Positions 3,340 through 62,220 of a stretch of DNA of 64,000 bases are shown here, in pieces; position 1 is the stretch's first letter, and each line of letters starts with the position of its first letter. The position numbers were made by a program, and so were the translations under genes. The notes below the pieces were generated by a model. The model had not been told where the DNA came from, searched no databases, and worked only from the letters and a program-made list of their open reading frames with translations. The stretch lies in contig CM097885.1 in NCBI GenBank assembly GCA_044892525.1, positions 12,340,001-12,404,000 of the forward strand, read 5' to 3'. Source of the stretch: Schmidtea polychroa (Eukaryota).

Positions 3340-3396
3340 CTAAACAGTATTTTATTATATTTTCGAATAAAGATTATCATTTATATATTTTCATAC

Positions 3397-38794: not shown

Positions 38795-38833
38795 CACGAT
38801 TAATTTCGACAGTTTTCCTGTCATCATCAGGTG
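38795..38833 (-). ncRNA. Minimal type I hammerhead ribozyme
   Basis: CAC-C-CTGATGA core overlap, stem II GACAG-GAAAA-CTGTC, GAAA, short stem III, TC, then GTG closing stem I. Confidence 0.75.
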
Positions 38834-39022
38834 GGATATAGTAACTCATTAAATTAAGGATTTTAAACAAATTTAATTATATATAAAAATTTATTTTCAT
38901 TTTATAAAAAAATATATTATTTTTTTTAAATTTTAACATTTAAAATTTAATTTAATAATTTAAAAAATTTTTATTAATTATTTAATTTAACACAACAATC
39001 AATAGATACAATACACAAAAGC

Positions 39023-42154: not shown

Positions 42155-42204
<50 letters not shown>

Positions 42205-42474
42205 TTAATAATAATAATAATTCAACAGTTACCAACAATCGGTTACTAAATATTTTTAACTAGGTGCTAACAAATAAGTACCAAATACTTACAACTAGAT
42301 ACCAAGTACTAACTAACTCTCAAACAACCACATACTTACAACTAACTACTTACAATCAATTAAATATTCTTCATTGTATTTTATGAATTGTATTTTTTTA
42401 AATTAATTTTTTATCTATCTTCAAAAATATATTTAATTACAATCAGTAGAAAAACCTTTTTAAATTTAACAAAA
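41116..42474 (+). repeat. Composite repeat beginning with a Maverick-like terminus AGTAGGTAGT
   Basis: The first 30 bp are repeated at 38496; the body is homologous to 36316-38477. Confidence 0.6.
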
Positions 42475-42475
42475 T

Positions 42476-43375
42476 TAACCAAAACAGCCCTCCCAACAAA
42501 AACATACCTCCATTACGCTTAAACCATTAGAAAAACAACATAAAACCTATGTTTTTATAGTATTTTAACCCCATATTTTAAACAACAACCACCCTTAATC
42601 TTTAAAACCTCAAACTCAAAAGCTTCAAACTAAAAAGAGAATAGAAAAGAAAATGGCATTATGAAAAAGTTAGAGGGCTATTTGGGATAGGGCTATATAC
42701 ACACTACTTTTGATCGCAATCAAACTCCGGAGTTGATCTTTATCAGATTATTGATTTTAAATTATATAAATTAAAAAATAAATGAAAAATAGTAAAACTG
42801 CTCTGAGGGGACAGTGGTATTTTTTCTTTCACTGTCCCCTCAACAGTTTTTTTGATCCGGATCATTTCAACCTCTTTCGTTTATCAAATCTCTTCTAATA
42901 TACAAGCTGGCCAGACTCATACATCAGAATCAATCCGATAATAGCAGCACACCTTATTATTCGCTTCTCGCTCGAATACGATTTCATCGGCGTTTTAAGC
43001 GTGCTGCTCGAAAGTACAAATGAATTCGAAAGTGAATCCGAAAGAGGTCCGAAAACAACTGAGAAATAAATGTGCACATTAAAGAATCGATCCGGGGGTG
43101 TTCGAAAGACAGGTGGCGATAATTACCGGTTCGCCACCATCACCCGTTTCAATAATTTTTTTTTCATATTTATGTTTAAAAATAAAATAATTAATAAAAT
43201 AAATAAAATAAATAAAATAAATAAAATAAATAAAATAAATAAAATAAATAAAATAAAATAAAATAAAATAAAAATAAATAAAATAAAATATAAATCTAAG
43301 ATACCCACACTATTATTTTCAAATTTTTAAAAAAAAAAACTAACCACAGTTAGGATTTGAACCACCATCCATTTG
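42476..43375 (+). repeat. Left terminal inverted repeat (tip missing, inner end fused into pPolB)
   Basis: Reverse complement of 58320-59185 and of most of 60083-60970. Confidence 0.9.
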
Positions 43376-46300
43376 TTATAAATGTACAGAATAATGATAA
43401 CAAATGTTTCATCTGGTCAATACTTGCACATTTACATCCTCAAGAATCAAACCCCCAAAGAGTTTCAAAATACAAACAATATGAAAATGAATTAATATTT
43501 CCCAAAGGATTCAAACATCCAATGAAACTAGAAGACATTCCAAAATTTGAAAGTTTAAATAATCTTAAAATTAATATTTATGAACGTGTTAAAGGGAAAC
43601 ATGTTAATAGCAGAGAAATTATTCCAATTTATATTTCAGATTATGAAGTTAGAGATAACGAACCCCAGGATAACACTAGGGAGATATATCTTTTAATCTT
43701 GGAACAACAAAATAATCAACATTATGTTTTAATAAAAAACTTTCAAGCTTTTACATCACCAGAGAATCCAACTAGTGGAGGAGGAACATGTAAAAGATGT
43801 CTTCATTATTCAACAACTAAAAACTCTATGATTAAACATACAAGATTTTGTGAAAAAGATGATCCAGCTTTAATTAAAATGCCTGATAATCCCAAGATGT
43901 ATTTTAAAAACTTTTCAAATTTACTACAAACAGTAGGAGTGCTTCATGGGGACTTTGAATCTATAAATCGTAAACAAGATTTGGTTAAACAATATTTAAA
44001 AATAATAGAAAAAAATAAACTCATGGATTCCTGGAACTCCTCAGGAGAGAAGATGAAACCAGAGAGGATGAAAGCCTTTCTAAGAAAAAGGAATAAACCT
44101 AATAGTGTTAAAAAAACTAAACAATTACCATCTGCTTATAAATTATTATTTAAAAGTAATTATCCTGAACTCATAGAATCTAGAGAATATACATTTCGAG
44201 GAATTTCAGAAACAGAAGTCTTGAATCATTTTACTAAAAGTATAAATGATCTAGAACATGAAATATTTAAAGTATTAAAAACAAACTATCCTCAAAATAT
44301 TTCTAATCAACAACAACAAGAATATGAAAACACTTCCAACTGTTGGATGTGTAAACAACCATTTGAAGAGTCTCCGAATATAAAAGTCCTCGATCATGAT
44401 CATTTAAAAAAGGAAAATAATTATCGAGGAGCAGCTCATAAAAATTGTAATCTTAATTGTCATACTCCTAAATTTGTACCTGTTATATTTCATAATCTTT
44501 TTGGTTATGACATACATCTATTTATTAAACATTTAGCAGCAAATGCTAAAAACTCTTTCAAAGTTATCGGCTTAACAAAGGAAAAATATAAATCAGTTGA
44601 ATATGGGAAATTAAAATTTATAGACTCGTTAAACTTTCTTCAAATGTCTCTAGATGGAATAGCTAAAACAATGAAACCAGAAGATTTTAAAATCACTCGA
44701 GAATTCTTGGAAAAAAATAATATTCCTCTAGAAGAATATCCTACATGTTTAGCAAAAGGAATATATCCTTATGACTATGTTGACTCGTTTGAAAGATATA
44801 ATGAAACAAGTCTTCCTAGCCAAGAAGATTTCTATTCACAACTTCAAAAAAATCATATTACAAATCAAGAATATTCTCGAGCAAATAAAATGTGGGAATT
44901 ATTCAAGTGTAAAACTTTAGGAGAATATACAAGTATGTATTTATCCTTGGATGTTTATATTCTAGCAGATTGCTTTGAAGAATTTACAAAATCTTTTGTT
45001 CTTAAACCTTACAATTATATAACAGCACCCTCTTTTGCTTGGGATACTTTATTATATACCATTTGGACTTCAAATATAGAAGAAGCTGATAAAATTATAG
45101 ATCTTTTAACTAACCTCGATATGTTTAATCTAATTAAAACAAACATTAGAGGAGGAGTCTCTTCAGTAATGGGGAATAGAGAAATAAAAGCTAGAAATGC
45201 AATAACTACTAGCAGAATGCTTTCAAAGACCTCTGATCCATATATAAAAATTAACAATGAGGAATTAAAAGAAATATTAGAAACAATGAAAAATCCTATA
45301 TTTATACTTTATATAGATGCAACAGCTTTATATTCAGGAATTATGACTCAATATTTACCAATGAGTGATTTCACTGAAATAGAGAACCCAACAGATGACC
45401 TTATGAAAGAAATACTTTCAACATCGAAAGATTCTCCAATAGGTTACTTTATAGAATGTGACCTCGACTATCCAGATGATATAAAATCAGGAACAAGATA
45501 TTTTCCTTTAGCTCCCATAAGAAGAAAGATTGATATCAACGAACTCTCTGAATGGCAAATCTCACAAGATAAACCTCCAACAATGAAACTTCTTTGTGAT
45601 CAAACAGATCGAAGGTTTTATCTTTGTCACTATAGACTCCTCCAATTTTATCTCTCACGAGGAATGATATTAAAAAAGTTCATAGTGTCATAAGATTTAA
45701 ACAAGCTCCATTCATGAAAGCTTTTATCGAGGAGAACATTAGGTGTCGAAACATTGCAAAAAGAGAAGGTAACCTTTTTAAAGATAATAATTATAAACTT
45801 TTAAACAATTCAGTCTTTGGGAAAACAATGGAGAATGTTGATAAATATACTCATATTGAACTCCTAACTAATACTGCCAAAGATATTAAGCGTTATAATC
45901 GCATGCTAGGAAAGCCTACATTTAAAAACGCACAAGTATTTTCTGAAAATCTTACTGCAGTAGAATTAAAAAATTATGAGAAAACATATAACAAACCAAT
46001 ATTTATAGGGTTTACAATTTTAGAACTTTCAAAATTACAAATGTATGAAACATATTATAACATCTTACAACCTATATACGGAGCAAATATATCAATGCAT
46101 GCAATGGATACAGATTCAATGTTTTTAACAATAAGAACTCATGATTTACAAAAAGATATGAAAGAAAATCCTATACTTTCAAATTTAATAAATTCATCTG
46201 GAGAACTATTTTCGTTTAAAGATGAAAAACCTTTTACTCCTATAGAAAATGGAATATTTATTCGTGCTAAACAATATTCATACGAAACATTTAGAAACCC

Positions 46301-46889
46301 TGAATTTATAACTAGATCATTTATATTTAAAACTCCAGAAACAGAAGAAACCATTACACATAGATATCCTATATTTCCTAAAGAAGAAAAACCTGTAAAG
46401 GATAACAGATGTAAAGGAATACAGAGAGTGGTTGCAAAGAATCTTTCTCATCAAGATTATATAGATACATTAAATCCAAATCATAAAGATAAAATTGATG
46501 AAATACATCAACTTAAAAGTGAAAACCATGATATTCACTTGATAGAATCTCAAAAAGTATCATTATCAAATTATGATGATAAGAGATTCATACTAAGTGA
46601 TTTAAAGACAACTCTACCTATTGGAAATAATTTAATCCCTATAATAAAAAATCTAGAAAAGTTGAATAAGTTATATGATACAAAGATTACTGATCTTGAT
46701 GTTTATAATGTTGAAACTATTTATCCCGAGAGAGAAATCGAGAAACCTTTATGTTCTCAAGTTTTTAATCCTATATGTTTAGAACTTAAATATTTTAATA
46801 CTGATTCTGAATATATAAAAGGTCTAAGTGATAAAGAATTTAAAGATCATAAATTAATGATTCATAGGTTGGCTTTCAACCATAACTGA
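43374..46889 (+). pseudogene. polB: Protein-primed DNA polymerase B, left copy (N-terminus deleted, frameshift at about 45675)
   Basis: HGDFES and FHNLFGYD exonuclease motifs, KGIYPYDY, YIDATALYS, KLLNNSVFGK, DTDS, KDE, and a DHDH...RGAAHKNCN endonuclease VII-like insert. Confidence 0.95.
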
Positions 46890-46975
46890 AACCAACGATA
46901 TTTAATAATAAAATGTCGACAATTAATTTAAGCAACTATAGCAACTTGATCTACTTTTTTAAAAATTCATCCATT

Positions 46976-47584
46976 TTATAAGTAAGAATTCTTTAACCAC
47001 TTGTCTCGTTTAATTTTTTTAGAATATTCATTAGTTATAATATTTGCACTTTTTAATCTTATAACCTCATTCTTTATATCTTGTATTATTTGATTTGATT
47101 TCATTATTTCACCATCAGTTAAGATTCCATCTTCCAAAGCTTTTAATTGAAATAAAAATAATTTAGAGATTCCTAATTCTATTGATAAACAAACTTCACG
47201 ATATAAACTTTTCTTTTTTGAAGTATAAGATAATGAAACTATTTCAGTTAAAAAACCATCAGCTACAGAAATACTTCCAAGTATTACTGGCGCAAGTGTT
47301 AAAACTGGTAAAGTTATAGGTAAAATAACTGTTAATATTGCAGATGCAAATCCTAAAGAATAACCTATAACTTTTAAAACTGTATTCCCTTTATTCCATC
47401 TATTTTTAATTTTTTTATGATGCTTTAATAAATCTTGTAAATGTAAGGTTTCTGATTTAAATTCTTTTACTCTCATAATTTCAAGTTCTGTGGGAGCTGA
47501 AGGTCCCGAAGGTCCCGAAGGTTTGGGGGAATAATATCCTGATGACAATTCTGGGTAAACTTTTTCTTCTCTTACTTCTTCCAT
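46976..47584 (-). CDS. Maverick two-TM accessory protein with N-terminal YPxL and PSAP motifs
   Basis: Intact 202-aa ORF with a helical N-region, hydrophobic hairpin, KKK, and a KALEDG..T..E tail resembling a recurrent Maverick membrane-protein family. Confidence 0.75.
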   Translation of the reverse strand: MEEVREEKVYPELSSGYYSPKPSGPSGPSAPTELEIMRVKEFKSETLHLQDLLKHHKKIKNRWNKGNTVLKVIGYSLGFASAILTVILPITLPVLTLAPVILGSISVADGFLTEIVSLSYTSKKKSLYREVCLSIELGISKLFLFQLKALEDGILTDGEIMKSNQIIQDIKNEVIRLKSANIITNEYSKKIKRDKWLKNSYL

Positions 47585-47592
47585 TTTAATAA

Positions 47593-48518
47593 TTAAAAAA
47601 ATAAGATTTTATTATCTGGCACCAATACTCGGATATCAAAAGAAACTCTTGTTGAGAGGATATCTTTATACAATTCTCTCAATGCTTTACGAACTTTATC
47701 AACATCAACCTTTTTTTCATAAAATATTAAATCTATATATTGTACAAGTGTGCTTTTAAAAATAATATTCTTACTTTTAACTTTATGTGTTTTATGTGAA
47801 TCATAAGCACTTATTATAACATCACCCTTTTCAAACTTACTATTATAATCACATTTCACAAACCATTTCATTGTTTGATCATCATCATTAAATAAAAAGA
47901 AATAAGGATCAATAATCTTTACAACCATAAAAACACTCCATTCTTTACTATTTGTTGTTATTAAAGTTGGTTCTATAAAATGTTTATATGTATGGGGTAA
48001 TAATGTTTTATTCTGTTCTAATTCAGCAGCTCTTTTTCTAATACTATGTGTGGTGTTAATGTGTGTTGTATGAGATTCTAAATTTGAAAGTCTTTTATTA
48101 AATGATGTAATCATCTCATTTATTATATTATATATTGTATTAAATTTAGTATTCATAATTTGTTTATCTTTAGAATTTAATATACTAGTATTTAACTTTA
48201 CAACTTGTTCAGTTAACAGACTTTGTAACTTGTCAAATTTATCATTAAATCGTTGTTCGATATTATTAAGCTTTGATTCCATTGAATCAATTTTTGTTGT
48301 TAATGAACTTTCAATTCTTGTTGTTGTTAAATCAGTATAATTTTTATTAGCAGCATCACCTTCATCAATTGGTAAAGATAAATCTTTTATCTTGTGTCCA
48401 TTTAAATTTAAATCTTTCATTAACATATTTATTTTCTGTTAAAGTTAATATTTCTTCTGTATTAAACCCTGTTTTTATTGTTCCACCACCTCTATTACAA
48501 GGAATATAAGAACTCATT
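47593..48518 (-). CDS. Fibre/spike-like protein (likely true start 48518, frameshift near 48420)
   Basis: DLNLNGHKIKDLSLPIDEGDAANKNY is a trimeric fibre/adhesin neck-type motif, followed by a coiled coil. An upstream frame reads MSSYIPC...ENKYVNE. Confidence 0.6.
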
Positions 48519-48541
48519 TATTAATAATTTAAAATGAATCT

Positions 48542-49249
48542 TCAAACCTGTTTCAAATGTAAATACATTGAAATCTCTTCTCCATTAAAATCAATCAATT
48601 CTCCTTCTTGATTAAGAATTTTAAAATTAATATCCGTTATATATTTTCTACATAAAGGTAAATAATTTGGAGGATTCATTCTTTCAACTATTTTATATCC
48701 CATAGGAACTGTGTTTGAGGGAAAGGAATATAAAACATTTGTTTGTTTACCATTATTATAAGAACCTGTTATACAATCGCAATGAATATTTATTGTGTTT
48801 GTATTTATTATTTTTATAATATGTTCTGATGTAACTTCAGGTGTGGTATAATGGTTTTGTGTAAATCCTAAAATTGTTCTAAAGAAACTATTATTTTGAA
48901 AACGAATTCCTATATTCTCTAAAGTCATTATACATTTTGAAGTTGGTAAATCCATTTTAATTTTAATGGCTCCATTTGTTTTTTTAGAAAGTATATTATT
49001 TAAATCTTTTATCTCATAAGCTCCAGGTTCTATTATTACAATAACATTTCCTTTTCGACTAATAATGAATTTATTATTATCTTTAGTTATATTAAAAATA
49101 GTATTATAAGCACAAAACCATAATAGACCTAATTCATAATTTAAATCTTGATCTAATTTTATTGAATCTTGAAAGTTTATAGTAAAGTCTGATTCTTTTG
49201 AATTTATAGATAAAGTTCTTGAATATTTATCTGACATTATGTTTACCAT
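48542..49249 (-). CDS. Minor capsid protein (penton, single jelly roll)
   Basis: SDFTINF..SIKLD...YELGL, IEPGAYEI, IHCDCITGSY.NG..TNVLYSF, YLPL and ELIDFNGE are typical of the Maverick minor capsid protein. Confidence 0.88.
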   Translation of the reverse strand: MVNIMSDKYSRTLSINSKESDFTINFQDSIKLDQDLNYELGLLWFCAYNTIFNITKDNNKFIISRKGNVIVIIEPGAYEIKDLNNILSKKTNGAIKIKMDLPTSKCIMTLENIGIRFQNNSFFRTILGFTQNHYTTPEVTSEHIIKIINTNTINIHCDCITGSYNNGKQTNVLYSFPSNTVPMGYKIVERMNPPNYLPLCRKYITDINFKILNQEGELIDFNGEEISMYLHLKQV

Positions 49250-49290
49250 TTTTTTTTAATTATCTTTCGGAAGGTTGCGAAGCTCCATTT

Positions 49291-49749
49291 TCATAGTAGA
49301 GATTTTAAATCATTATAAATTTCTTGGATTAAGGAAGTGAAACCTTCTCCATTATTCAATCTATACAAAACATATAAGCTTAAAATACCACATATTTTAG
49401 TATTATTGGGTTGAACTTGTAAAGAATTAAAAGTATAGTCCTTCGAGGAACTCTTCGAGAGATAGTCTTCAACTTCTTTAGTGGGTTTAATCCCAAAAGA
49501 ATCAAAGTAGATAGGGACTTCGTCCATATATATACAAGCCCAATGAGATCCTTTTTCATTTGAATTTTGATAATTGATTATTATATTCTTTTGAGTGACC
49601 CTTTGACCTTTGACCTTCGGACCTTTCAATTCATCATTCATTAATATTTTTATTTTTAAATTTAAATAATCTGCATAATCTTTTAAATCAAAATTTGTTT
49701 TTGCATTTATTCCAAATGTTTTTAAAAAATCTAATATTGAAGGAGTCAT
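49291..49749 (-). CDS. Adenain-like cysteine protease
   Basis: GSHW, YFDSFG and QVQ...CG give the His-Asp-Gln-Cys catalytic set. Confidence 0.93.
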   Translation of the reverse strand: MTPSILDFLKTFGINAKTNFDLKDYADYLNLKIKILMNDELKGPKVKGQRVTQKNIIINYQNSNEKGSHWACIYMDEVPIYFDSFGIKPTKEVEDYLSKSSSKDYTFNSLQVQPNNTKICGILSLYVLYRLNNGEGFTSLIQEIYNDLKSLL

Positions 49750-50591
49750 TTTATATACTTATTAAATTTATCTTTTGAAATTATTCCTTGTTTTAACAAA
49801 TCTTTAGAAATCTTTAAAATATCAGAATCTAAATTATTATGTCCTGCTTTTTTAGCTGCTAATAGTTTTCTTAATTCAATAAAAAGATTGATTGGGTTTG
49901 CAGCCACAGGCATCCCCTTACCCTCTGTAACAACATAACCCCTTTCATTTTTATTTAAATAATTCTTTAAATCTTGAATATGTTTTGCTTTAGAACTTCC
50001 ATGTATTAATTTTATTAAGTTTAAATATTTATCAATTTCTTTTTTCTTAACATCATCTGGAAGATATCCAGAAATTAATCCATGAAAACCATCTGAAAGT
50101 TCAATGTCTACACGCTCTCTATTCATAAAAGTATTTGTTGAAATAATCGCTGGATTATTTTTTGAATTTAAATATATATAAAATTTTTGATTATTAATTG
50201 TTATTGTTTGAAAACCTCTAGGATCATAACCTATAGTAGGTATAATTGATGGAGCTAGTGATGTATTAATTTTAAAATTAATTGGAGTCTTTAGAGGTGT
50301 TAATCTTGAAAGAAATTCATCTTCTTCTAAATCAATAGTATTTCTACGTTTTCTTAAACCCATTAATCTTGATAATTCCTTTTTAGAAGGTTCTATAGCT
50401 TTAAGTTCAGGGGTTAGAGGAGCTTCTATAGTTTTAAGTTCCTCTATAGCTTTAATTGTTGGCCCCTGTTGTTGTGTTATTACCTCATTTAATATTATAG
50501 ATTCAGCATGTTGAGTTGTATCTTTTTTATTATATTTATCTTGTTCAGATTGTAATTTTTTTAAAAGTGCTAATCTTTCTTCATATACCAT
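49746..50591 (-). CDS. Conserved Maverick core-type protein
   Basis: C-terminal GKG...NPINLFIELRKLLAAKKAGHNN...LLKQGII matches the recurrent Maverick DP..L..RL..L.A...AGN motif. Confidence 0.7.
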   Translation of the reverse strand: MVYEERLALLKKLQSEQDKYNKKDTTQHAESIILNEVITQQQGPTIKAIEELKTIEAPLTPELKAIEPSKKELSRLMGLRKRRNTIDLEEDEFLSRLTPLKTPINFKINTSLAPSIIPTIGYDPRGFQTITINNQKFYIYLNSKNNPAIISTNTFMNRERVDIELSDGFHGLISGYLPDDVKKKEIDKYLNLIKLIHGSSKAKHIQDLKNYLNKNERGYVVTEGKGMPVAANPINLFIELRKLLAAKKAGHNNLDSDILKISKDLLKQGIISKDKFNKYIK

Positions 50592-50613
50592 TTTTATGGT
50601 ATTAAAAATGGTA

Positions 50614-51211
50614 TCAATGGGGTTCGAAGGGCTTCAAGTATAAACCTTTACCATTTTTAGTTTTACAAAGGCATCCATTCTTTAAAGATTTACATATTTT
50701 TTTTAAATCATCTTTATCATCTTTATGTAGAAATTTGATTTTTTAAAAAATCATTTAAACCTCTACCTTTATAAGGATCAAGATAGAGACCCTTTCCCTT
50801 GGACAGAGTCCCCTGAGACTTTTGACCTTCAGACAGAGTCCCCTCATATGGATTAAGATAGAGGCCTTTTCCCTTAGCTTGCCCTACCTTCTTCATTGAA
50901 TCGATTTCAGTTTGTAGTTTTTCTTTTTCTAGGTCTGTCTTTTGAGATTCTTTAGCTTTTTGAACTGTAGTTGCAATTCCTCCAGCTATTCCAGCAGCAC
51001 CTGATAAACCAGCAATGATTGCAGGTATTAAAGCAGCTAATGGAAGAATGCCACCTTCTTTAGTCGAAGAGCCCTTCAGCTTCGCTCTAACTTGTTCTTT
51101 TACATGTTTTCCAATAAAATATTTCTTACCGTCAATTACTACTGATTTATTTTTAATTGAATTTATTAATTCTTACAAAGATTCTTCAGTAGAGGAACTC
51201 TTCGAGGTCAT
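50614..51211 (-). pseudogene. Adenovirus pX-like virion core/membrane-active precursor (not in the ORF track)
   Basis: Hand translation: KEGGILPLAALIPAIIAGLSGAAGIAGGIATTV plus three GKGLYLxP repeats. TAA at codon 13 and a frameshift near 50740. Confidence 0.75.
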
Positions 51212-51226
51212 TTTATAATAAATAAA

Positions 51227-52038
51227 ATGGATGTACGAAGTCCAATAATTTGGAAACCAATTTTAAATAGACATAAATCTAAATTTAATAATAAAGTATT
51301 TCCTGATAATTTTAGATTATTAATTGTTGGTTCTTCTGGATGTGGAAAGAATGTACTTGTTTTGAAAATGTTACTTGAAGATGGTTTTTTAGATTATAAT
51401 AATTTAATCTTTTATTCTACAACCATAAATCAACCAGAATTACAACTTTTGAAATGTGGATTTGAAAATAAATTAACTAAAAAAGCTATAATTGATATTT
51501 TTAAAAATCAACATAGATGTCCTGAAGAAGTTTTTCAACCTTGTGATATGGTTGATTGGTATAAGGAAAAGATTTTAGAATCAGATATTAGTAATAAAAA
51601 TGATTACATCTGTGAAGATGAGGGGCAGGCAGAGGCGATTCAAGTTTATTCTCTAATAAACCTGAAGATGTTTTACATTGTGATTTACTTCCTAAAGATA
51701 AAAAGAATCTAGTTATATTTGATGATGTTGTTAACATGAAAAATCAAGAGATTCAAAAGAGTTACTTTACACGAGGTCGACATAATAATTGTAATGTTAT
51801 TTATATATCTCAAACATATTATGCTTTAGATAAAAATTCAATAAGAAATAATTCCAATTGTTTTATATTTTTTAAATTAGATCGCTGTGATAAGAATATG
51901 ATTTATAATGATTTATTTTCAAATGTTGAACCTGATAAGAATATGTTTGATATGTTTGTTGATAATCATTGGAAAGAAAAATATAAGTATATTTATTTGG
52001 ATAGAGAAGAAGCTGAAATATGGAAAAGTTTGTTTTAG
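51227..52038 (+). pseudogene. A32/FtsK-type genome-packaging ATPase (frameshift near 51648)
   Basis: Walker A GSSGCGKN, Walker B LVIFDD in the shifted frame, and FTRGRHNN...YISQ. Confidence 0.92.
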
Positions 52039-52049
52039 GGCTTGTCGAC

Positions 52050-52478
52050 TTAAAAATCTGTTTTCTGTAGTTCATTATTATAAAATCTACCTAATATTTT
52101 TTCATTATTTAAATCAAAGATGCTATATGTTATTGGAGTTGTATAATGTATGCTATTTATAATAAAAATTTCATTTGTCCATTTTGCTGTGAATCCTTTT
52201 TCAAATTTATTTTTATATTTAAATATTCTTACTCGGTCACCAATTTTAAACTTTGGTTTTTCAATAACATCATTTTCAATATTTACCACTTTAATGGTTT
52301 CAGGCTTCATGGAAGCATTTAAAGGTGTTAATTTTATAGAACTATGTACATCATTATTATATTCATTTACAATCTTTTGTAACAATTCATTGTTCCATTT
52401 TTGTTTTCCAATAGCCGTAAAATATTTCCACATTTTATTTTTTAATGTTCTATTTAATCTTTCAACCACAACTGCTTT
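52050..52478 (-). pseudogene. Retroviral-type (rve) integrase, C-terminal part only
   Basis: AVVERLNRTLK, YNN.VHSSIKLTP, PKFKIGDRVRI, FEKGFTAKWT.E.F and GRFYNNELQ. It is cut at the inversion junction. Confidence 0.92.
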
Positions 52479-53185
52479 TCAATGGAATCAAAGCTTAATA
52501 ATATCGAACAACGATTTAATGATAAATTTGACAAGTTACAAAGTCTGTTAACTGAATAAGTTGTAAAGTTAAATACTAGTATATTAAATTCTAAAGATAA
52601 ACAAATTATGAATACTAAATTTAATACAATATATATTATATATTATATAATATAATAAATGAGATGATTACATCATTTAATAAAAGACTTTCAAATTTAG
52701 AATCTCATACAACACACATTAACACCACACATAGTATTAGAAAAAGAGCTGCTGAATTAGAACAGAATAAAACATTATTACCCCATACATATAAACATTT
52801 TATAGAACCAACTTTAATAACAACAAATAGTAAAGAATGGAGTGTTTTTATGGTTGTAAAGATTATTGATCCTTATTTCTTTTTATTTAATGATGATGAT
52901 CAAACAATGAAATGGTTTGTGAAATGTGATTATAATAGTAAGTTTGAAAAGGGTGATGTTATAATAAGTGCTTATGATTCACATAAAACACATAAAGTTA
53001 AAAGTAAGAATATTATTTTTAAAAGCACACTTGTACAATATATAGATTTAATATTTTATGAAAAAAAGGTTGATGTTGATAAAGTTCGTAAAGCATTGAG
53101 AGAATTGTATAAAGATATCCTCTCAACAAGAGTTTCTTTTGATATCCGAGTATTGGTGCCAGATAATAAAATCTTATTTTTTTAA
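52478..53185 (+). pseudogene. 5'-truncated duplicate of the fibre-like gene
   Basis: Inverted copy of 47593-48286 with a new stop and a short AT duplication near 52635. Confidence 0.85.
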
Positions 53186-53193
53186 TTATTAAA

Positions 53194-53793
53194 ATGGAAG
53201 AAGTAAGAGAAGAAAAAGTTTACCCAGAATTGTCATCAGGATATTATTCCCCCAAACCTTCGGGACCTTCAGCTCCCACAGAACTTGAAATTATGAGAGT
53301 AAAAGAATTTAAATCAGAAACCTTACATTTACAAGATTTATTAAAGCATCATAAAAAAATTAAAAATAGATGGAATAAAGGGAATACAGTTTTAAAAGTT
53401 ATAGGTTATTCTTTAGGATTTGCATCTGCAATATTAACAGTTATTTTACCTATAACTTTACCAGTTTTAACACTTGCGCCAGTAATACTTGGAAGTATTT
53501 CTGTAGCTGATGGTTTTTTAACTGAAATAGTTTCATTATCTTATACTTCAAAAAAGAAAAGTTTATATCGTGAAGTTTGTTTATCAATAGAATTAGGAAT
53601 CTCTAAATTATTTTTATTTCAATTAAAAGCTTTGGAAGATGGAATCTTAACTGATGGTGAAATAATGAAATCAAATCAAATAATACAAGATATAAAGAAT
53701 GAGGTTATAAGATTAAAAAGTTCAAATATTATAACTAATGAATATTCTAAAAAAATTAAACGAGACAAGTGGTTAAAGAATTCTTACTTATAA
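53194..53793 (+). CDS. Duplicate of the two-TM accessory protein (199 aa)
   Basis: Same as 46976-47584 except for one fewer PSG repeat and one A/S change. Confidence 0.8.
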   Translation: MEEVREEKVYPELSSGYYSPKPSGPSAPTELEIMRVKEFKSETLHLQDLLKHHKKIKNRWNKGNTVLKVIGYSLGFASAILTVILPITLPVLTLAPVILGSISVADGFLTEIVSLSYTSKKKSLYREVCLSIELGISKLFLFQLKALEDGILTDGEIMKSNQIIQDIKNEVIRLKSSNIITNEYSKKIKRDKWLKNSYL

Positions 53794-53879
53794 AATGGAT
53801 GAATTTTTAAAAAAGTAGATCAAGTTGCTATAGTTGCTTAAATTAATTGTCGACATTTTATTATTAAATATCGTTGGTT

Positions 53880-56800
53880 TCAGTTATGGTTGAAAGCCAA
53901 CCTATGAATCATTAATTTATGATCTTTAAATTCTTTATCACTTAGACCTTTTATATATTCAGAATCAGTATTAAAATATTTAAGTTCTAAACATATAGGA
54001 TTAAAAACTTGAGAACATAAAGGTTTCTCGATTTCTCTCTCGGGATAAATAATTTCAACATTATAAATATCAAGATCAGTAATCTTTGTATCATATAACT
54101 TATTCAACTTTTCTAGATTTTTTATTATAGGGATTAAATTATTTCCAATAGGTAGAGTTGTCTTTAAATCACTTAGTATGAATCTCTTATCATCATAATT
54201 TGATAATGATACTTTTTGAGATTCTATCAAGTGAATATCATGGTTTTCACTTTTAAGTTGATGTATTTCATCAATTTTATCTTTATGATTTGGATTCAAT
54301 GTATCTATATAATCTTGATGAGAAAGATTCTTTGCAACCACTCTCTGTATTCCTTTACATCTGTTATCCTTTACAGGTTTTTCTTCTTTAGGAAATATAG
54401 GATATCTATGTGTAATGGTTTCTTCTGTTTCTGGAGTTTTAAATATAAATGATCTAGTTATAAATTCAGGGTTTCTAAATGTTTCGTATGAATATTGTTT
54501 AGCACGAATAAATATTCCATTTTCTATAGGAGTAAAAGGTTTTTCATCTTTAAACGAAAATAGTTCTCCAGATGAATTTATTAAATTTGAAAGTATAGGA
54601 TTTTCTTTCATATCTTTTTGTAAATCATGAGTTCTTATTGTTAAAAACATTGAATCTGTATCCATTGCATGCATTGATATATTTGCTCCGTATATAGGTT
54701 GTAAGATGTTATAATATGTTTCATACATTTGTAATTTTGAAAGTTCTAAAATTGTAAACCCTATAAATATTGGTTTGTTATATGTTTTCTCATAATTTTT
54801 TAATTCTACTGCAGTAAGATTTTCAGAAAATACTTGTGCGTTTTTAAATGTAGGCTTTCCTAGCATGCGATTATAACGCTTAATATCTTTGGCAGTATTA
54901 GTTAGGAGTTCAATATGAGTATATTTATCAACATTCTCCATTGTTTTCCCAAAGACTGAATTGTTTAAAAGTTTATAATTATTATCTTTAAAAAGGTTAC
55001 CTTCTCTTTTTGCAATGTTTCGACACCTAATGTTCTCCTCGATAAAAGCTTTCATGAATGGAGCTTGTTTAAATCTTATGACACTATGAACTTTTTTAAT
55101 ATCATTCCTCGTGAGAGATAAAATTGGAGGAGTCTATAGTGACAAAGATAAAACCTTCGATCTGTTTGATCACAAAGAAGTTTCATTGTTGGAGGTTTAT
55201 CTTGTGAGATTTGCCATTCAGAGAGTTCGTTGATATCAATCTTTCTTCTTATGGGAGCTAAAGGAAAATATCTTGTTCCTGATTTTATATCATCTGGATA
55301 GTCGAGGTCACATTCTATAAAGTAACCTATTGGAGAATCTTTCGATGTTGAAAGTATTTCTTTCATAAGGTCATCTGTTGGGTTCTCTATTTCAGTGAAA
55401 TCACTCATTGGTAAATATTGAGTCATAATTCCTGAATATAAAGCTGTTGCATCTATATAAAGTATAAATATAGGATTTTTCATTGTTTCTAATATTTCTT
55501 TTAATTCCTCATTGTTAATTTTTATATATGGATCAGAGGTCTTTGAAAGCATTCTGCTAGTAGTTATTGCATTTCTAGCTTTTATTTCTCTATTCCCCAT
55601 TACTGAAGAGACTCCTCCTCTAATGTTTGTTTTAATTAGATTAAACATATCGAGGTTAGTTAAAAGATCTATAATTTTATCAGCTTCTTCTATATTTGAA
55701 GTCCAAATGGTATATAATAAAGTATCCCAAGCAAAAGAGGGTGCTGTTATACAATTGTAAGGTTTAAGAACAAAAGATTTTGTAAATTCTTCAAAGCAAT
55801 CTGCTAGAATATAAACATCCAAGGATAAATACATACTTGTATATTCTCCTAAAGTTTTACACTTGAATAATTCCCACATTTTATTTGCTCGAGAATATTC
55901 TTGATTTGTAATATGATTTTTTTGAAGTTGTGAATAGAAATCTTCTTGGCTAGGAAGACTTGTTTCATTATATCTTTCAAACGAGTCAACATAGTCATAA
56001 GGATATATTCCTTTTGCTAAACATGTAGGATATTCTTCTAGAGGAATATTATTTTTTTCCAAGAATTCTCGAGTGATTTTAAAATCTTCTGGTTTCATTG
56101 TTTTAGCTATTCCATCTAGAGACATTTGAAGAAAGTTTAACGAGTCTATAAATTTTAATTTCCCATATTCAACTGATTTATATTTTTCCTTTGTTAAGCC
56201 GATAACTTTGAAAGAGTTTTTAGCATTTGCTGCTAAATGTTTAATAAATAGATGTATGTCATAACCAAAAAGATTATGAAATATAACAGGTACAAATTTA
56301 GGAGTATGACAATTAAGATTACAATTCTTATGAGCTGCTCCTCGATAATTATTTTCCTTTTTTAAATTATCATGATCGAGGACTTTTATATTCGGAGACT
56401 CTTCAAATGGTTGTTTACACATCCAACAGTTGGAAGTGTTTTCATATTCTTGTTGTTGTTGATTAGAAATATTTTGAGGATAGTTTGTTTTTAATACTTT
56501 AAATATTTCATGTTCTAGATCATTTATACTTTTAGTAAAATGATTCAAGACTTCTGTTTCTGAAATTCCTCGAAATGTATATTCTCTAGATTCTATGAGT
56601 TCAGGATAATTACTTTTAAATAATAATTTATAAGCAGATGGTAATTGTTTAGTTTTTTTAACACTATTAGGTTTATTCCTTTTTCTTAGAAAGGCTTTCA
56701 TCCTCTCTGGTTTCATCTTCTCTCCTGAGGAGTTCCAGGAATCCATGAGTTTATTTTTTTCTATTATTTTTAAATATTGTTTAACCAAATCTTGTTTACG

Positions 56801-58182
56801 ATTTATAGATTCAAAGTCCCCATGAAGCACTCCTACTGTTTGTAGTAAATTTGAAAAGTTTTTAAAATACATCTTGGGATTATCAGGCATTTTAATTAAA
56901 GCTGGATCATCTTTTTCACAAAATCTTGTATGTTTAATCATAGAGTTTTTAGTTGTTGAATAATGAAGACATCTTTTACATGTTCCTCCTCCACTAGTTG
57001 GATTCTCTGGTGATGTAAAAGCTTGAAAGTTTTTTATTAAAACATAATGTTGATTATTTTGTTGTTCCAAGATTAAAAGATATATCTCCCTAGTGTTATC
57101 CTGGGGTTCGTTATCTCTAACTTCATAATCTGAAATATAAATTGGAATAATTTCTCTGCTATTAACATGTTTCCCTTTAACACGTTCATAAATATTAATT
57201 TTAAGATTATTTAAACTTTCAAATTTTGGAATGTCTTCTAGTTTCATTGGATGTTTGAATCCTTTGGGAAATATTAATTCATTTTCATATTGTTTGTATT
57301 TTGAAACTCTTTGGGGGTTTGATTCTTGAGGATGTAAATGTGCAAGTATTGACCAGACGAAACATTTGTTATCATTATTTTGTATGTTTATAACATTTTT
57401 AGATTTAAAGGGTGTAGGAATATAAGATTTAGGATTAGGTGGTAATCCTCTCCAATAATCAATCACTAAAGTTTGGAAAGAGTTGAATACTAGGTTTGAA
57501 TCTCCTAATTCATTTTCAACCTCTTCTTGTTTTGCTTCTACTGCTTGAATTATTTCTTTGATGGTTTTATCAAATCCTTTAGTTGAAAATAAATATTTAA
57601 AGGGTATTCCAATTTCAACATCTAAAGGTGTTGTCTTTTCTTCTGCTGCTCGCCAGTATTTTGCTTTGATTATAATTTTATATTTTATAACATTATACCT
57701 TGTCGGTTTATAATTTTTTAAAGCTTCAGTGAAAGAATTTTTAATATTTTTTTTATTTTTATTTATATATTCTCCAGGAGTTATAGGTCCATTGATTTCT
57801 AATTGACATTCATCTACATGATTAAAATCATCCCAGTTATATTTTTCTCTTTCAACATGATCAGGTTCTCCTTCTGAATGACATTCCTCATCGTCAGAAT
57901 TTTGTTTTTTATTTTTACATTCTTTATATGTTCTAAATAATAGAAATTTACTTTTGTTGAAAAGTTACAGTGAGAACATGTAAATATTTCTCTATTTTTC
58001 CCGATACAATTTTCAAAATGTTTATTATATCCAGAATGTAGAAATCTTCCTTTACATTTAGGACAAACTTTTGAATTTGTATCATTAAGATTGTTTTCTT
58101 TTAATAAATGAGCTTTCGATTTTAAGTGAGAAATTAATCCAGTTTTATTTTTAAAAACTTTATTACAAATATTACAATTCAT
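53880..58182 (-). pseudogene. polB: Full-length protein-primed DNA polymerase B with N-terminal zinc fingers, right copy (two single-base frameshifts)
   Basis: The ZnF ORF starting at 58182 joins, via a one-base shift near 57922, a frame open down to 55076. A second shift near 55095 joins 55055-53880. Confidence 0.92.
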
Positions 58183-58271
58183 TTTTAGAAAAAAATTTTT
58201 TATTGGATATCCTGTTTTGATTTTTTATGTTTTTATATTTATTTTCATAATGTGACAGTATAAAAAATAAC

Positions 58272-59204
58272 AAAAATCCAAACCTAGATAGCGCAGTGGG
58301 CTAGACTGGCACAGTGGTTCAAATGGATGGTGGTTCAAATCCTAACTGTGGTTAGTTTTTTTTCAACATAAAATAATATTAAAAATTTGAAAATAATAGT
58401 GTGGGTATCTTAGATTTATAAAGTAGTTGTATATTTATTTATTTTTATTTTATTTTATTTATTTTATTAATTATTTTATTTTTAAACATAAATATGAAAA
58501 AAAAATTATTGAAACGGGTGATGGTGGCGAACCGGTAATTATCGCCGCCTGTCTTTCGAACACCCCCGGATCGATTCTTTAATGTGCACATTTATTTCTC
58601 AGTTGTTTTCGGACCTCTTTCGAATTCACTTTCGAATTCATTTGTACTTTCGAGCAGCACGCTTAAAACGCCGATGAAATCGTATTCGAGCGAGAAGCGA
58701 ATAATAAGGTGTGCTGCTATTATCGGATTGATTCTGATGTATGAGTCTGGCCAGCTTGTATATTAGAAGAGATTTGATAAACGAAAGAGGTTGAAATGAT
58801 CCGGATCAAAAAAACTGTTGAGGGGACAGTGAAAAAAAAAATACAACTGTCCCCTCAGAGCAGTTTTACTATTTTTCATTTATTTTTTAATTTATATAAT
58901 TTAAAATCAATAATCTGATAAAGATCAACTCCGGAGTTTGATTGCGATCAAAAGTAGTGTGTATATAGCCCTATCCCAAATAGCCCTCTAACTTTTTCAT
59001 AATGCCATTTTCTTTTCTATTCTCTTTTTAGTTTGAAGCTTTTGAGTTTGAGGTTTTAAAGATTAAGGGTGGTTGTTGTTTAAAATATGGGGTTAAAATA
59101 CTATAAAAGCATAGGTTTTATGTTGTTTTTCTAATGGTTTAAGCGTAATGGAGGTATGTTTTTGTTTGGAGGGCTGTTTGGGTTAGGGCTATATACACAC
59201 TACT
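58272..59204 (-). repeat. Terminal repeat A (pol-proximal end)
   Basis: Ends ...TATATACACACTACT, which is 5'-AGTAGT on the minus strand. Confidence 0.9.
58282..58363 (+). ncRNA. tRNA-like Pol III-type unit 1 (inside terminal repeat A)
   Basis: A box TAGCGCAGTGG (58289), B box GGTTCAAATCC (58332), T8 terminator. Confidence 0.6.
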
Positions 59205-59327
59205 CATGAGTAAATTCTTTATTATAATCAAGATTTAATTTATTTTTTTCTTGAATTTTTATATTATTCATTTTTATATATTAAAATTTACACACACAAA
59301 ATAGGATTAATTAAATATATTAAGTAA

Positions 59328-59409
59328 GCCATTATAGCGGAGTGGGAATAGGCTTCAATTTTATCACCGGGAGTACCGGGTTCAATTTTCGATTTTGGTC
59401 AATTTTTTT
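59328..59409 (+). ncRNA. tRNA-like Pol III-type unit 2
   Basis: 73 nt, with A box TAGCGGAGTGG starting at position 8, a degenerate B box GGTTCAATT, partial acceptor pairing and a T7 run. Confidence 0.5.
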
Positions 59410-59571
59410 CGATATTTTTTTTTCAACGGAATCTGATTCAGCCTACTGATTTTAGTATATATTTAAATTTTCAGATGGATCTGAGTGGTAGTTGTCGAGA
59501 AAATGAATAATTAATTATTAATTTCATCAATAAATAGTCACACATTAACAACTTATTTTATATTGAGTATA

Positions 59572-59652
59572 GCTCTAATAGCTTAGTGGTAATAGCACTC
59601 GACTGCATTGCCAATACCAATGGGTTCAAATCCCATTTCGGTCATTTTTTTT
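59572..59652 (+). ncRNA. tRNA-like Pol III-type unit 3 (tRNA-Cys-like)
   Basis: 73 nt, with A box TAGCTTAGTGG at position 8, D stem GCT/AGC, CT-GCA loop, perfect T arm ATGGG-TTCAAAT-CCCAT and a T8 run. The anticodon stem does not pair. Confidence 0.62.
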
Positions 59653-59807
59653 CAAAATTTTTTAACGAAATATTGATCAGCATACTCGATTTAGTACTTG
59701 TACAAATTTTCAAGGTGATTGGTCAACGGCAACTCTTGGAAATTTAAGATCAAAAACGTTTTAACTACCAAAAATTAATATATCCAATAAAAAAAATATT
59801 TATAAAA

Positions 59808-60050
59808 ATGGATGAGTTAAAAGAAAGAATGAGAAATGAATTGAATGAAGTTAAACATAAGAGAATGAAAAGAAGAGAAGAAGAACCATTAGAATACATC
59901 AAAGAGTTGATGGTAGATAATGAAAAGTATCGACATTTTTATATGAAGGCTGTAGATGTTGCTGATATAAGATTGAAGAAAATGAAACAATTACAGGAAA
60001 GAGTTAAAGAACTTGAATCGATTATTTATATGAGAAAAATCCTAACCTAG
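59808..60050 (+). CDS. Small coiled-coil Maverick ORF (80 aa)
   Basis: ATG ORF ending at the inner edge of terminal repeat B. It shares a 31-nt upstream motif with pPolB. Confidence 0.6.
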   Translation: MDELKERMRNELNEVKHKRMKRREEEPLEYIKELMVDNEKYRHFYMKAVDVADIRLKKMKQLQERVKELESIIYMRKILT

Positions 60051-60990
60051 ATAGCGCAGTGGGCTAGACCGGCACCGTGGTTCAAATGGATGGTGGTTCA
60101 AATCCTAACTGTGGTTAGTTTTTTTTTTTTTTTTAAATTTGAAAATAATAGTGTGGGTATCTTAGATTTATATTTTATTTTATTTATTTATATTTTATTT
60201 TATTTTATTTTATTTATTTTATTTATTTTATTTATTTTATTTATTTTATTTATTTTATTTATTTTATTTATTTTATTTATTTTATTTATTTTATTAATTA
60301 TTTTATTTTTAAACATAAATATGAAAAAAAATTATTGAAACGGGTGATGGTGGCGAACCGGTAATTATCGCCACCTGTCTTTCGAACACCCCCGGATCGA
60401 TTCTTTAATGTGCACATTTATTTCTCAGTTGTTTTCGGACCTCTTTCGGATTCACTTTCGAATTCATTTGTACTTTCGAGCAGCACGCTTAAAACGCCGA
60501 TGAAATCGTATTCGAGCGAGAAGCGAATAATAAGGTGTGCTGCTATTATCGGATTGATTCTGATGTATGAGTCTGGCCAGCTTGTATATTAGAAGAGATT
60601 TGATAAACGAAAGAGGTTGAAATGATCCGGATCAAAAAAACTGTAGAAGGGACAGTGAAAAAAAAAAAAAAAAAAAAAACACCACTGTCCCCTCAGAGCA
60701 GTTTTACTATTTTTCATTTATTTTTTAATTTATATAATTTAAAATCAATAATCTGATAAAGATCAAATAGCCCTCTAACTTTTTCATAATGCCACTTTCT
60801 TTTCTATTCTCTTTTTAGTTTGAAGCTTTTGAGTTTGAGGCTTAAAGATTAAGGGTGGTTGTTGTTTAAAATATGGGGTTAAAATACTATAAAAGTATAG
60901 GTTTTATGTTGTTTTTCTAATGGTTTAAGCATAATGGAGGTATGTTTTAGTTGGGAGGGTTGTGTTGGTTGGGTATATATACACACTACT
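60035..60990 (-). repeat. Terminal repeat B (direct repeat of A)
   Basis: Near-identical to 58272-59204, with an expanded (TTTTATTTA)n and a deletion of about 50 bp at 60765. Ends CACACTACT. Confidence 0.9.
60045..60134 (+). ncRNA. tRNA-like Pol III-type unit 4 (copy of unit 1 in repeat B)
   Basis: Same A and B boxes as unit 1, followed by a T16 run. Confidence 0.6.
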
Positions 60991-61048: not shown

Positions 61049-61362
61049 TGGTCAATCTGTACTTGATCTATCTAAACTTAGAATGTATGAATTGCAATAT
61101 AAGGATCTGGAAACATTTCGTAATGAGTTTAATTGTAAAATTAATATCGTTGCGGGTGATACGGATTCTTTTTTCCTCGAAGTCATTAACTGTAAACTTG
61201 AGGTTCTTTTACCTTCAATGATTCGAGATAATTTATTAGATACTTCCAATTACAATAGTTGTCATTCCTTATATAGTAAGAACCTTGATTCAGTCATTGG
61301 AAAGTTCAAAGACGAGAATAAAGGTCTTAAATATAAGGAGTGGGTTTTTCTTAGACTTAAAG
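61049..61362 (+). pseudogene. Fragment of a pPolB palm from a different Maverick family
   Basis: SVLDLSKLRMYE...AGDTDSFF...DTSNY...VIGKFKDE...FLRLK. The sequence is unlike the resident polymerase. Confidence 0.85.
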
Positions 61363-62220
61363 GGGTTGATTTATCGTGCATGGTCTTTATCTTCTACTTT
61401 TAAAAATTCAGTAAAAGGTGTTGACATATTGGTTGAATTGTTAATGAAGAACGGTTATTCAAAATCCTTTTTAATAATTATTGTGAAAGAGACTCTTGAT
61501 AAATTTATTAAAAATCCTAAGGATCCATGTTTGAGAAAATCTGGGTGTGATGTTGTTGAGATGTGTGAGTCTGATGAGTTAAATATATTAAATAGTGTGA
61601 GCAAGGATGATTAGCCTAAATTTGTGTTAGTATTCCCGTACTCAGAACGTTTTAAGGATTATAAAGTGAAGATAAGAAAGCAGTTAGGGAATTTAAACTA
61701 TATGATAGTGTCAACTTTAAATAAGCTTTTGTGTATTGTATCTATTGATTGTTGTGTTAAATTAAATAATTAATAAAAAATTTTTAAATTATTAAATTAA
61801 ATTTTAAATGTTAAAATTTAAAAAAAATAATATATTTTTTTATAAAATGAAAAAAAATTTTTATATATAATTAAATTTGTTTAAAATCCTTAATTTAATG
61901 AGTTATTATATCCCACCTGATGATGACAGGAAAACTGTCGAAATTAATCGTGAAAAGAGTGTTTGATTGGCGTTATCTTATAAAATCAAATAACTAAACA
62001 ATTTATAAAATCTATTGATAAAACCAGTTATAATTAAATTTTTGTTCTAAAACTCGAAATTAAAAATATATATTACTGCACAATTTAACCAAGTAGTTGC
62101 ATTGAAAAATTAAATTTATCCATCAAATAAAATCTACAACCAGTTATAATTAAAAAATAATTAAAAATAATTAAAAGATTTTTCTAAAACTCAAAATTTA
62201 AAATAAATATTGCTATTATT
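61357..62220 (+). mobile_element. Inverted duplicate of the Penelope fragment and its flank
   Basis: Reverse complement of about 39380-39737 joined to about 38530-39030; the GIY-YIG part is deleted. Confidence 0.88.
61914..61952 (+). ncRNA. Minimal hammerhead ribozyme
   Basis: CACCTGATGATGACAGGAAAACTGTCGAAATTAATCGTG with an intact 5-bp stem II. Confidence 0.75.

What the first reader, a model, noticed from the sequence alone, without database searches (positions are those of the whole stretch)
58282..60134. Four tRNA-sized Pol III units at the end of a Maverick: candidate VA-RNA-like small RNA system
Seen: four co-oriented units of about 73-74 nt (58282, 59328, 59572, 60045). Each has an A box (TAGCnnAGTGG) at tRNA position 8, a B box (GGTTCAAATCC, degenerate in unit 2), a GGT(C/T)A end and an oligo-T run. 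Anticodon and acceptor stems are broken, so they are not decoding tRNAs, yet promoter boxes, length and terminators are kept across three divergent sequences. One type is built into the terminal repeat itself. Known: adenoviruses, which share pPolB, adenain and pX with Mavericks, make Pol III VA RNAs from tRNA-type internal promoters to counter PKR and RNAi. Inference: this Maverick family may express its own Pol III small RNAs, or use TFIIIC boxes as insulators or origin helpers. I do not know of such a system described for Mavericks.
Basis: partly seen in the sequence, partly recalled or inferred. Interest (0 to 1): 0.85.

Follow-up and report, generated by a model that had tools for sequence, protein, structure and literature searches.

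The report
Maverick ends carry Pol III cluster
A virus-like jumping element with over a thousand copies in this animal genome carries worn-down tRNA look-alikes at its ends that keep only their RNA polymerase III signals, next to a longer, strongly folded unit that likely makes a small RNA of its own, much as adenoviruses and herpesviruses do.

Summary
The four units are real. They are three paralogous sequences (U4 is U1), at least U3 derived from host tRNA-Cys. They are confined to one high-copy Maverick family, not scattered SINEs: 30 of 30 position-ordered U3 hits lay in the family. The tandem of four is a junction of two element pieces; intact elements carry U1 at both ends and an optional U2+U3 cassette. 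Variants shared between copies spare U1's boxes and terminator (1 of 35 columns against 18 of 40), while its 5' end and middle drift and no common fold exists. So the short units look like promoter-terminator modules rather than VA-like RNAs. Transcription is not shown; contigs of runs only guessed to be RNA give a lead. A second Maverick family and 15 metagenome relatives show no such units. This scan noted the same units earlier on other copies in this genome; five literature searches found no description for Mavericks.

The parts
58282..58363 (+). U1: tRNA-sized A/B-box unit at the inner edge of the terminal repeat, two GGTTCAAA copies, T8 run; starts 100 bp from the divergent pPolB ATG (58182)
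   Evidence: 2805 genome matches to a U1 pattern
58518..58870 (+). U5 (not in the finding): structured-RNA candidate in the terminal repeat; A-like box 58525, B-like box 58568 (spacing 43), internal T4 at about 58605, G·U-rich hairpin 58720-58780, final hairpin 58811-58867, then T4/T5; many copies have AATAAA plus an A run near 58795
   Evidence: 2838 genome matches
58257..59204 (+). Terminal inverted repeat of the pPolB end, ending in CACACTACT
59205..59271 (-). First ~22 codons of the double-jelly-roll capsid gene, cut at the junction with the preceding element end
59328..59409 (+). U2: A box, degenerate B box, T7; starts 57 bp from the divergent capsid ATG; paralog of U3 including about 70 nt downstream
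59572..59652 (+). U3: tRNA-Cys(GCA)-derived unit, T8; many copies lack 9 nt just before the A box
   Evidence: 1427 exact core matches
59808..60050 (+). Small coiled-coil-like ORF (80 aa here, 89 aa in other copies), optional in the family, under codon-level constraint
60045..60133 (+). U4: second copy of U1 at the inner edge of the other terminal repeat, T15
60344..60710 (+). Second copy of U5
60035..60990 (+). Terminal inverted repeat of the capsid end, ending in CACACTACT
42476..43375 (-). Truncated terminal repeat of the fold-back arm: a third U5 copy (A-like box 43136) and only the 3' half of U1
43374..58182 (.). Body of the fold-back Maverick copy: two inverted pPolB arms (genes in pieces), minor capsid-like, protease-like and ATPase ORFs

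Best explanation
This Maverick family carries, as fixed parts of its ends, tRNA-derived units that likely recruit TFIIIC and RNA polymerase III, and beside them a longer folded unit (U5) that likely yields a structured small RNA. Shown: U3 descends from host tRNA-Cys; U1-U3 are paralogs; U1 and U5 sit in the terminal repeats pointing outward; selection among propagating lineages keeps U1's boxes and pre-terminator but not its 5' end or middle; selection keeps U5's base pairs on one strand. Inferred: the 73-nt units are transcribed or occupied mainly for their effect on the DNA. They would hold the inner edge of the repeat open and act as tDNA-type barriers beside the divergent pPolB and capsid promoters, so their number can vary (1-3 per end). 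Their terminators would stop read-through into U5 and host DNA. Inferred with less support: U5 is read by Pol III from its own A/B-like head, passes a weak T4, and gives a wobble-rich RNA of about 280-350 nt that works in trans like VA, EBER or TMER RNAs (a decoy or substrate for dsRNA-handling proteins, or a replication helper).
For: Family confinement: 30 of 30 first position-ordered U3 matches, 20 of 20 hand-picked divergent U1 matches and 30 of 30 first U5 matches lie in family context. Counts 2805 (U1), 2838 (U5) and 1427 (U3) fit two repeats and one cassette per element, with reversed-pattern controls 0. U1, 60 copies not selected on U1: shared variants in 1 of 35 motif columns (an A>G that keeps TRGC) against 18 of 40 others, p=3e-5; rare variants equal, 32 against 32. 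The same test recovers the codon pattern in the small ORF (2/4/14 by codon position). U3 middle against host Cys middle: score 24, other host tRNAs 10-12, 0 of 2000 shuffles. U5: z -7.4 on the outward strand, -3.7 on the other; of 94 confident pairs, shared variants keep pairing 12 of 17 against 17 of 67 rare ones, p=0.001, with one compensatory change in 34 of 120 sequences; opposite-strand control 4 of 10 against 10 of 52. A generic A/B scan of the window finds 8 hits, all U1-U5 copies at spacing 43-44; shuffles give 0-3 (mean 0.75). Lineages without U2/U3 often carry tandem U1 at a 232-244 bp period. tDNA barrier function needs A and B boxes (passages of PMC7990762); planarian Polintons are piRNA/chromatin-silenced (passages of PMC8532177; relevance depends on the untested host clade).
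Against: No transcript, TFIIIC binding or barrier activity is shown. U2 and U3 have too few shared variants to test box selection, and U2's B box is degenerate. In 11 of 97 capsid-end matches the small ORF, not a unit, lies next to the capsid ATG. U1 also conserves TAGAC, a second GGTTCAAA too close to the A box, and GTTAG, which a promoter role does not explain. U5's boxes each deviate from consensus, its whole head is conserved (so box-specific selection is not shown), it has an internal T4, and 67 of 125 matches carry AATAAA plus an A run, which also fits Pol II. Covariation is mostly G·U to Watson-Crick; RNAalifold finds 1 compensatory pair of 99 and a covariation term of +0.34. Shared variants are not independent events, and copies recombine. 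A second Maverick family (4 copies) and 15 metagenome relatives lack units, although most of those contigs do not reach an element end.
Confidence: 0.5

Rival explanations
1. The 73-nt units are themselves the trans-acting products: tRNA-shaped decoys ending in oligo-U that titrate La, tRNA-sensing or RNAi proteins.
For: Length, start position and T7-T15 terminators are kept. U3 folds better than shuffles (z -3.1) and keeps D- and T-arm pairs. U1 conserves motifs beyond one promoter. Dosage rises by separate routes (U2+U3, or tandem U1).
Against: No shared fold: U1, U2 and U4 at z -0.2, -0.05, -0.8. The seven 5' bases of U1 occur in at least ten forms, and 13 of 30 sampled U3 copies lack 9 nt before the A box. 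U2/U3 are dispensable.
Confidence: 0.22
2. The short units are Pol III modules, but U5 is not a Pol III RNA: it is a Pol II, polyadenylated pri-miRNA-like or piRNA-source transcript, a domesticated SINE relic, or a fold used as single-stranded DNA during strand-displacement replication.
For: AATAAA plus an A run in 67 of 125 matches; SINE-like head-body-tail layout; 60-nt hairpins of pre-miRNA size; imperfect boxes; internal T4; position inside the terminal repeat.
Against: A/B-like boxes at exactly tRNA spacing in every copy scanned. Twelve G·U pairs and strand-specific constraint suit RNA better than DNA. No free copies: count equals U1, 30 of 30 in family context. The A run is absent from 58 of 125 matches.
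Confidence: 0.18
3. The units are neutral captured tRNA pseudogenes or SINE heads that hitch-hike with the element.
For: U3 is plainly tRNA-Cys-derived; the host has large tandem tRNA arrays (1001 Cys matches); U2/U3 are optional; other Mavericks lack them.
Against: Box-specific constraint in U1 (p=3e-5), pairing constraint in U5 (p=0.001), intact terminators, and no scattered copies in 80 of 80 sampled contexts.
Confidence: 0.1

Closest known systems
Murine gammaherpesvirus 68 TMERs (tRNA-miRNA-encoded RNAs)
   Same: Several tRNA-like type-2 Pol III units in a dsDNA virus genome, with hairpins behind a tRNA-like head (PMC8223928, PMC4378190, passages). Clustering at a genome end is recalled.
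   Different: TMER heads fold as tRNA and are joined to pre-miRNAs. Here U1-U4 have lost the cloverleaf and end in T7-T15; only U5 has hairpins, and its head is not tRNA-shaped. No miRNA is shown.
Adenovirus VA RNA I/II and EBV EBER1/2
   Same: Internal A/B boxes, neighbouring units, wobble-rich stems; VA is proposed to derive from tRNA genes (PMC6599070, passages). The carrier shares pPolB, DJR capsid, A32 ATPase and weak pX similarity.
   Different: No Rfam match. U1-U4 are half the size and unstructured; U5 is about twice the size. A GGGU/ACCC pair exists in U5's first stem but shared variants break it. The units sit in terminal repeats. No PKR link.
Bocavirus BocaSR
   Same: Pol III small RNA encoded beside a genome terminus that aids replication (PMC11194592, abstract and introduction).
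   Different: ssDNA parvovirus, single 140-nt RNA; no similarity tested or seen.
tDNA / TFIIIC chromatin barriers
   Same: Function rests on A and B boxes rather than on the RNA (PMC7990762, passages), matching the constraint pattern of U1.
   Different: Known cases are host loci; here the modules travel inside a mobile element. Barrier activity is untested.
tRNA genes of polinton-like viruses, virophages and MELD viruses
   Same: Related elements carry captured tRNA genes and other ncRNAs (PMC12220804 passages; PMC8502044 figure legend).
   Different: Those are ARAGORN/Rfam-callable decoding tRNAs in non-animal hosts; these units fail ARAGORN and have broken stems.
tRNA-derived SINEs
   Same: tRNA-derived head with A/B boxes; U5 has a body and often AATAAA plus an A run (layout recalled).
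   Different: No dispersed copies or target-site duplications seen; counts match element ends; U1-U4 end in a terminator right after the head.

Membership tests
Maverick/Polinton (carrier) | pPolB, rve integrase, packaging ATPase, DJR capsid, long TIRs, 6-bp target duplication | tested here: met
   PF03175 (below cut-off, E=1.4e-5), PF00665, PF04665, PF21738; ~950-bp TIRs with AGTAGT/ACTACT ends; 6-bp duplications in 2 of 3 full copies
Decoding tRNA gene | Cloverleaf with paired acceptor and anticodon stems | tested here: not met
   ARAGORN 0 genes; U3 passes the Rfam score but both stems are broken
Type-2 Pol III gene | A box and B box at tRNA spacing plus oligo-T terminator | tested here: met
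   U1, U3, U4 exact; U2 B box with 2 mismatches; U5 with 1+2 mismatches; spacing 43-44
Type-2 Pol III gene | Boxes under purifying selection | tested here: inconclusive
   Met for U1 (p=3e-5); too few shared variants for U2/U3; not box-specific for U5
Type-2 Pol III gene | Transcribed by Pol III / bound by TFIIIC | not testable with these tools
   Only contigs of runs guessed to be RNA were available
VA RNA | Rfam VA model; ~160 nt with terminal stem, apical stem and central domain | tested here: not met
   No VA hit at E<=5 in 40000-64000; lengths 73 and ~280-350 nt
VA RNA | Conserved GGGU/ACCC tetrastem | tested here: not met
   Absent from U1-U4; present in U5's first stem but broken by shared variants
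VA RNA | Strong, wobble-rich double-stranded fold | tested here: inconclusive
   Met by U5 (z -7.4, 12 G·U of 94 pairs); not met by U1, U2, U4
VA RNA | Inhibits PKR or saturates Dicer | not testable with these tools
   No assay
TMER | tRNA-folded head joined to pre-miRNA hairpins that yield miRNAs | tested here: not met
   U1-U4 end in T7-T15 with no significant hairpin behind U2 or U3 (z -0.1, -0.9); U5's head does not resemble the 13 host tRNA sequences tried
tRNA-derived SINE | Dispersed copies independent of a carrier | tested here: not met
   80 of 80 sampled contexts inside the family; counts fit element ends
tDNA barrier / insulator | Box-dependent block of heterochromatin spread | not testable with these tools
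   Anatomy fits; no assay

The most novel reading that the evidence does not exclude
This Maverick lineage runs its own Pol III programme: tRNA-derived modules that keep its ends open against host silencing, plus an abundant wobble-rich RNA (U5) from both terminal repeats that acts as a VA/EBER-type decoy or a miRNA precursor against RNAi/piRNA defence. That would be a viral-type counter-defence RNA in an endogenous Polinton, and it could help explain a family of over a thousand young copies.
Probability: 0.3. Interest if true: 0.85.

Novelty: new variant of a known kind. Interest (0 to 1): 0.62.

Why it matters
Mavericks are described by their proteins, and how they escape host silencing is open. 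Selected Pol III modules and a structured RNA inside the terminal repeats would give these adenovirus relatives a non-coding layer like that of adeno-, herpes- and bocaviruses, and would show a route from a captured tRNA gene to such a unit. With ~2800 copies per unit the claim is cheap to test by Northern blot, Pol III ChIP or existing small-RNA reads.

Tried and rejected
Expression. No RNA holder listed (no evidence either way). Contigs of 4 runs only guessed to be RNA were laid on 57900-60030. X1, X2 and X7 cover U1 and U5; X10 gave nothing. Summed depth was much higher over 58548-58835 (X1 2356-9592, X2 1240-22150, X7 47-65 from 58620) than over U1 (206-324, 514-1564, 8-9) or the U2/U3 bins (X1 4-17, X2 0-16, X7 0), and fell between 58793 and 58807. 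The tool states that contig depth cannot rank parts and no DNA control was laid, so this is a lead only. The A-tails at 58795-58797 are explained by a genomic A run in many copies, where oligo-dT could prime internally; X2's very short contigs could be piRNA-sized reads. The covered variant lacks U2/U3 (joint 59282 to 59771).

BLAST candidate counts (1707, 6, 744, 888, 0) are not copy numbers and were replaced by pattern counts. The first U2/U3 and capsid variant tables were contaminated by cross-hits; U2/U3 were redone and the capsid control dropped. The loose regex missed U2 and U4 in the window and was replaced. A conserved terminal stem in U1 was considered and dropped: the 5' end varies without matching 3' changes. 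Hairpins behind U2/U3: not significant. Viral contigs: no capsid relative, no U1 or U5 motif. DNA around the 73-74%-identical capsids P0002/P0003 could not be fetched. The host clade was not resolved. Only four host tRNA types were compared, so the source of U1, U2 and U5 is open. No supplementary files were read; the ncRNA tables of PMC12220804 could bear on novelty.

Full report
Observation. A strict pattern hits exactly 4 places in the window and 0 in 200 shuffles. ARAGORN finds no tRNA; Rfam scores only U3, with broken stems.

Carrier. The window is G000:C1:12340001-12404000. Three full family copies (14.4-14.9 kb) have ~950-bp terminal repeats, pPolB, ATPase, rve integrase and DJR capsid; two show 6-bp target duplications. 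In them U1 lies at the inner edge of both repeats pointing outward, and U2, U3 and a small ORF lie between the capsid ATG and one repeat. In the window a fold-back copy ends at 59204 and 59205-60990 is the opposite end of another copy. The tandem of four is therefore a junction, and U4 is U1. U1 starts 100 bp from the divergent pPolB ATG, U2 57 bp from the divergent capsid ATG.

Not SINEs. All 66 best BLAST loci lay in the family, but those are biased to near-identical copies. Exact pattern counts are 2805 for U1, 1427 for U3 and 2838 for U5, with reversed controls 0: two repeats and one cassette per element. The first 30 U3 matches by position (30 of 1427, all in the first 13 Mb of C1, including the window's own) are 30 of 30 in family context. 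Twenty divergent U1 matches picked from the first 100 listed are 20 of 20. The first 30 U5 matches are 30 of 30, 29 with U1's B motif upstream.

Origin. U3's middle matches host tRNA-Cys(GCA) (13 of 14 in the anticodon arm; score 24 against 10-12 for Lys, Arg and Gln; 0 of 2000 shuffles). U1, U2 and U3 align with one another, U2 and U3 also downstream. Only four host tRNA types were compared.

Selection on the short units. I split variants among copies into shared (3 or more copies, inherited through active lineages) and rare. For U1 in 60 copies not fetched by U1, shared variants touch 1 of 35 motif columns and 18 of 40 other columns (p=3e-5); with all 101 copies, 1 of 35 and 24 of 40. Rare variants fall equally on both. 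The method recovers the codon pattern of the small ORF. U2 and U3 (60 and 63 copies) have almost no shared variants, so they cannot be tested, except that 13 of 30 U3 copies lack 9 nt before the A box. U1, U2 and U4 fold no better than shuffles; U3 does. Architecture varies: of 97 capsid-end matches in my loci (biased towards U3, not deduplicated), 60 are U2-U3-ORF-U1-U5 and 17 lack U2/U3; several of those carry tandem U1. This pattern points to constraint on promoter and terminator DNA more than on an RNA shape.

A fifth unit. Earlier scan notes mentioned a folded stretch, which I then tested. 58505-58880 folds at z -7.4 on the outward strand and -3.7 on the other, with 12 G·U among 94 confident pairs. 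In 120 distinct copies, shared variants keep pairing 12 of 17 times and rare ones 17 of 67 (p=0.001); the opposite strand gives 4 of 10 and 10 of 52. RNAalifold on 20 copies returns the same helices but only one compensatory pair. A generic A/B scan of the window gives 8 hits: U1-U4 and four U5 heads, all at spacing 43-44. Against Pol III: imperfect boxes, an internal T4, and AATAAA plus an A run in 67 of 125 matches. U5 has no Rfam match.

Expression is not shown. What searches gave is told under Tried and rejected: contigs of three runs guessed to be RNA cover U1 and U5, which is a lead and no more.

Range. Four copies of a second Maverick family show one recurring weak hit at spacing 53 inside an ORF and no tRNA-like unit. 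Fifteen metagenome relatives show none, but most are short. The feature seems lineage-restricted; one unchecked scan note reports a Pol III-type hairpin in a Polinton of another genome.

Mechanism. Most likely (0.5): U1-U4 are TFIIIC/Pol III modules acting chiefly in cis, as tDNA-type barriers or open-chromatin anchors beside the element's divergent promoters, and U5 is a structured Pol III RNA acting in trans. Family confinement, origin and both selection patterns are shown; binding, transcription and function are inferred. Rivals: short RNAs as decoys (0.22), U5 from Pol II or as a DNA fold (0.18), neutral cargo (0.1).

Literature. Searches for Polinton/Maverick with Pol III, tRNA-like, VA RNA, SINE capture or repeat-borne ncRNA terms (listings and abstract starts only) showed no paper on this. 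Passages were read in PMC8502044, PMC12220804, PMC8223928, PMC4378190, PMC6599070, PMC8532177 and PMC7990762; the abstract and introduction of PMC11194592. Polinton-like viruses are known to carry tRNA and other ncRNA genes. The library lacks most subscription papers and Repbase entries, and no supplements were read. PKR's vertebrate restriction, SINE layout and the A/B consensus are recalled.

Verdict. A real, selected, lineage-specific cluster of Pol III-type units in Maverick ends: a new variant of a known kind, already noted by this scan on other copies. Interest 0.62; 0.85 if U5 proves to be a counter-silencing RNA (probability 0.3).

Noticed in passing
L157:5436-5515 (-), metagenome contig: A related Maverick (capsid 50% identical) carries a hairpin matching Rfam mir-754 (48.6 bits, E=6e-7, below the gathering score of 84). 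miR-754 appears in a planarian miRNA paper (listing only). Some such miRNAs may be Maverick-borne.
   Followed up: partly
window 42476-59204: Fold-back Maverick copy: two near-identical inverted pPolB arms (43374-48286 and 52478-57395) and no capsid or complete integrase gene.
   Followed up: partly
L108-L110 (G000:C1:14263194-14279492): A 16.4-kb, 98% palindromic element with two pPolB copies of the second family lies inside a family-A copy; many pPolB hits of that family come as inverted pairs 5-17 kb apart.
   Followed up: no
window 61083-61717, 38522-39735, 36665-37136, 41200-42400: Fragments and terminal-repeat satellites resembling the second Maverick family flank the element, suggesting nested insertions.
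   Followed up: partly
window 59410-59480 and 59653-59720: The ~50-70 nt behind the terminators of U2 and U3 are more alike than their anticodon-arm regions; unexplained, possibly a DNA motif.
   Followed up: no
window 35916-36150 (-): An isolated, older U5 fragment with its A/B-like head (36144).
   Followed up: no
L076 (G000:C1:269.25 Mb), L220, L243: Host tRNA genes lie in long tandem arrays (Cys period 281 bp, 1001 matches; others 424 and 278 bp).
   Followed up: no
L071:4145-5500 (-): The integrase ORF carries an N-terminal phospholipase-A2-like domain; PLA2-like genes mark Alpha adintovirus virion modules (PMC8502044 passage), where they are joined to pX rather than to integrase.
   Followed up: no
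window 7010-12023: LTR retrotransposon with identical 293-bp LTRs and gag, pol and integrase ORFs.
   Followed up: no
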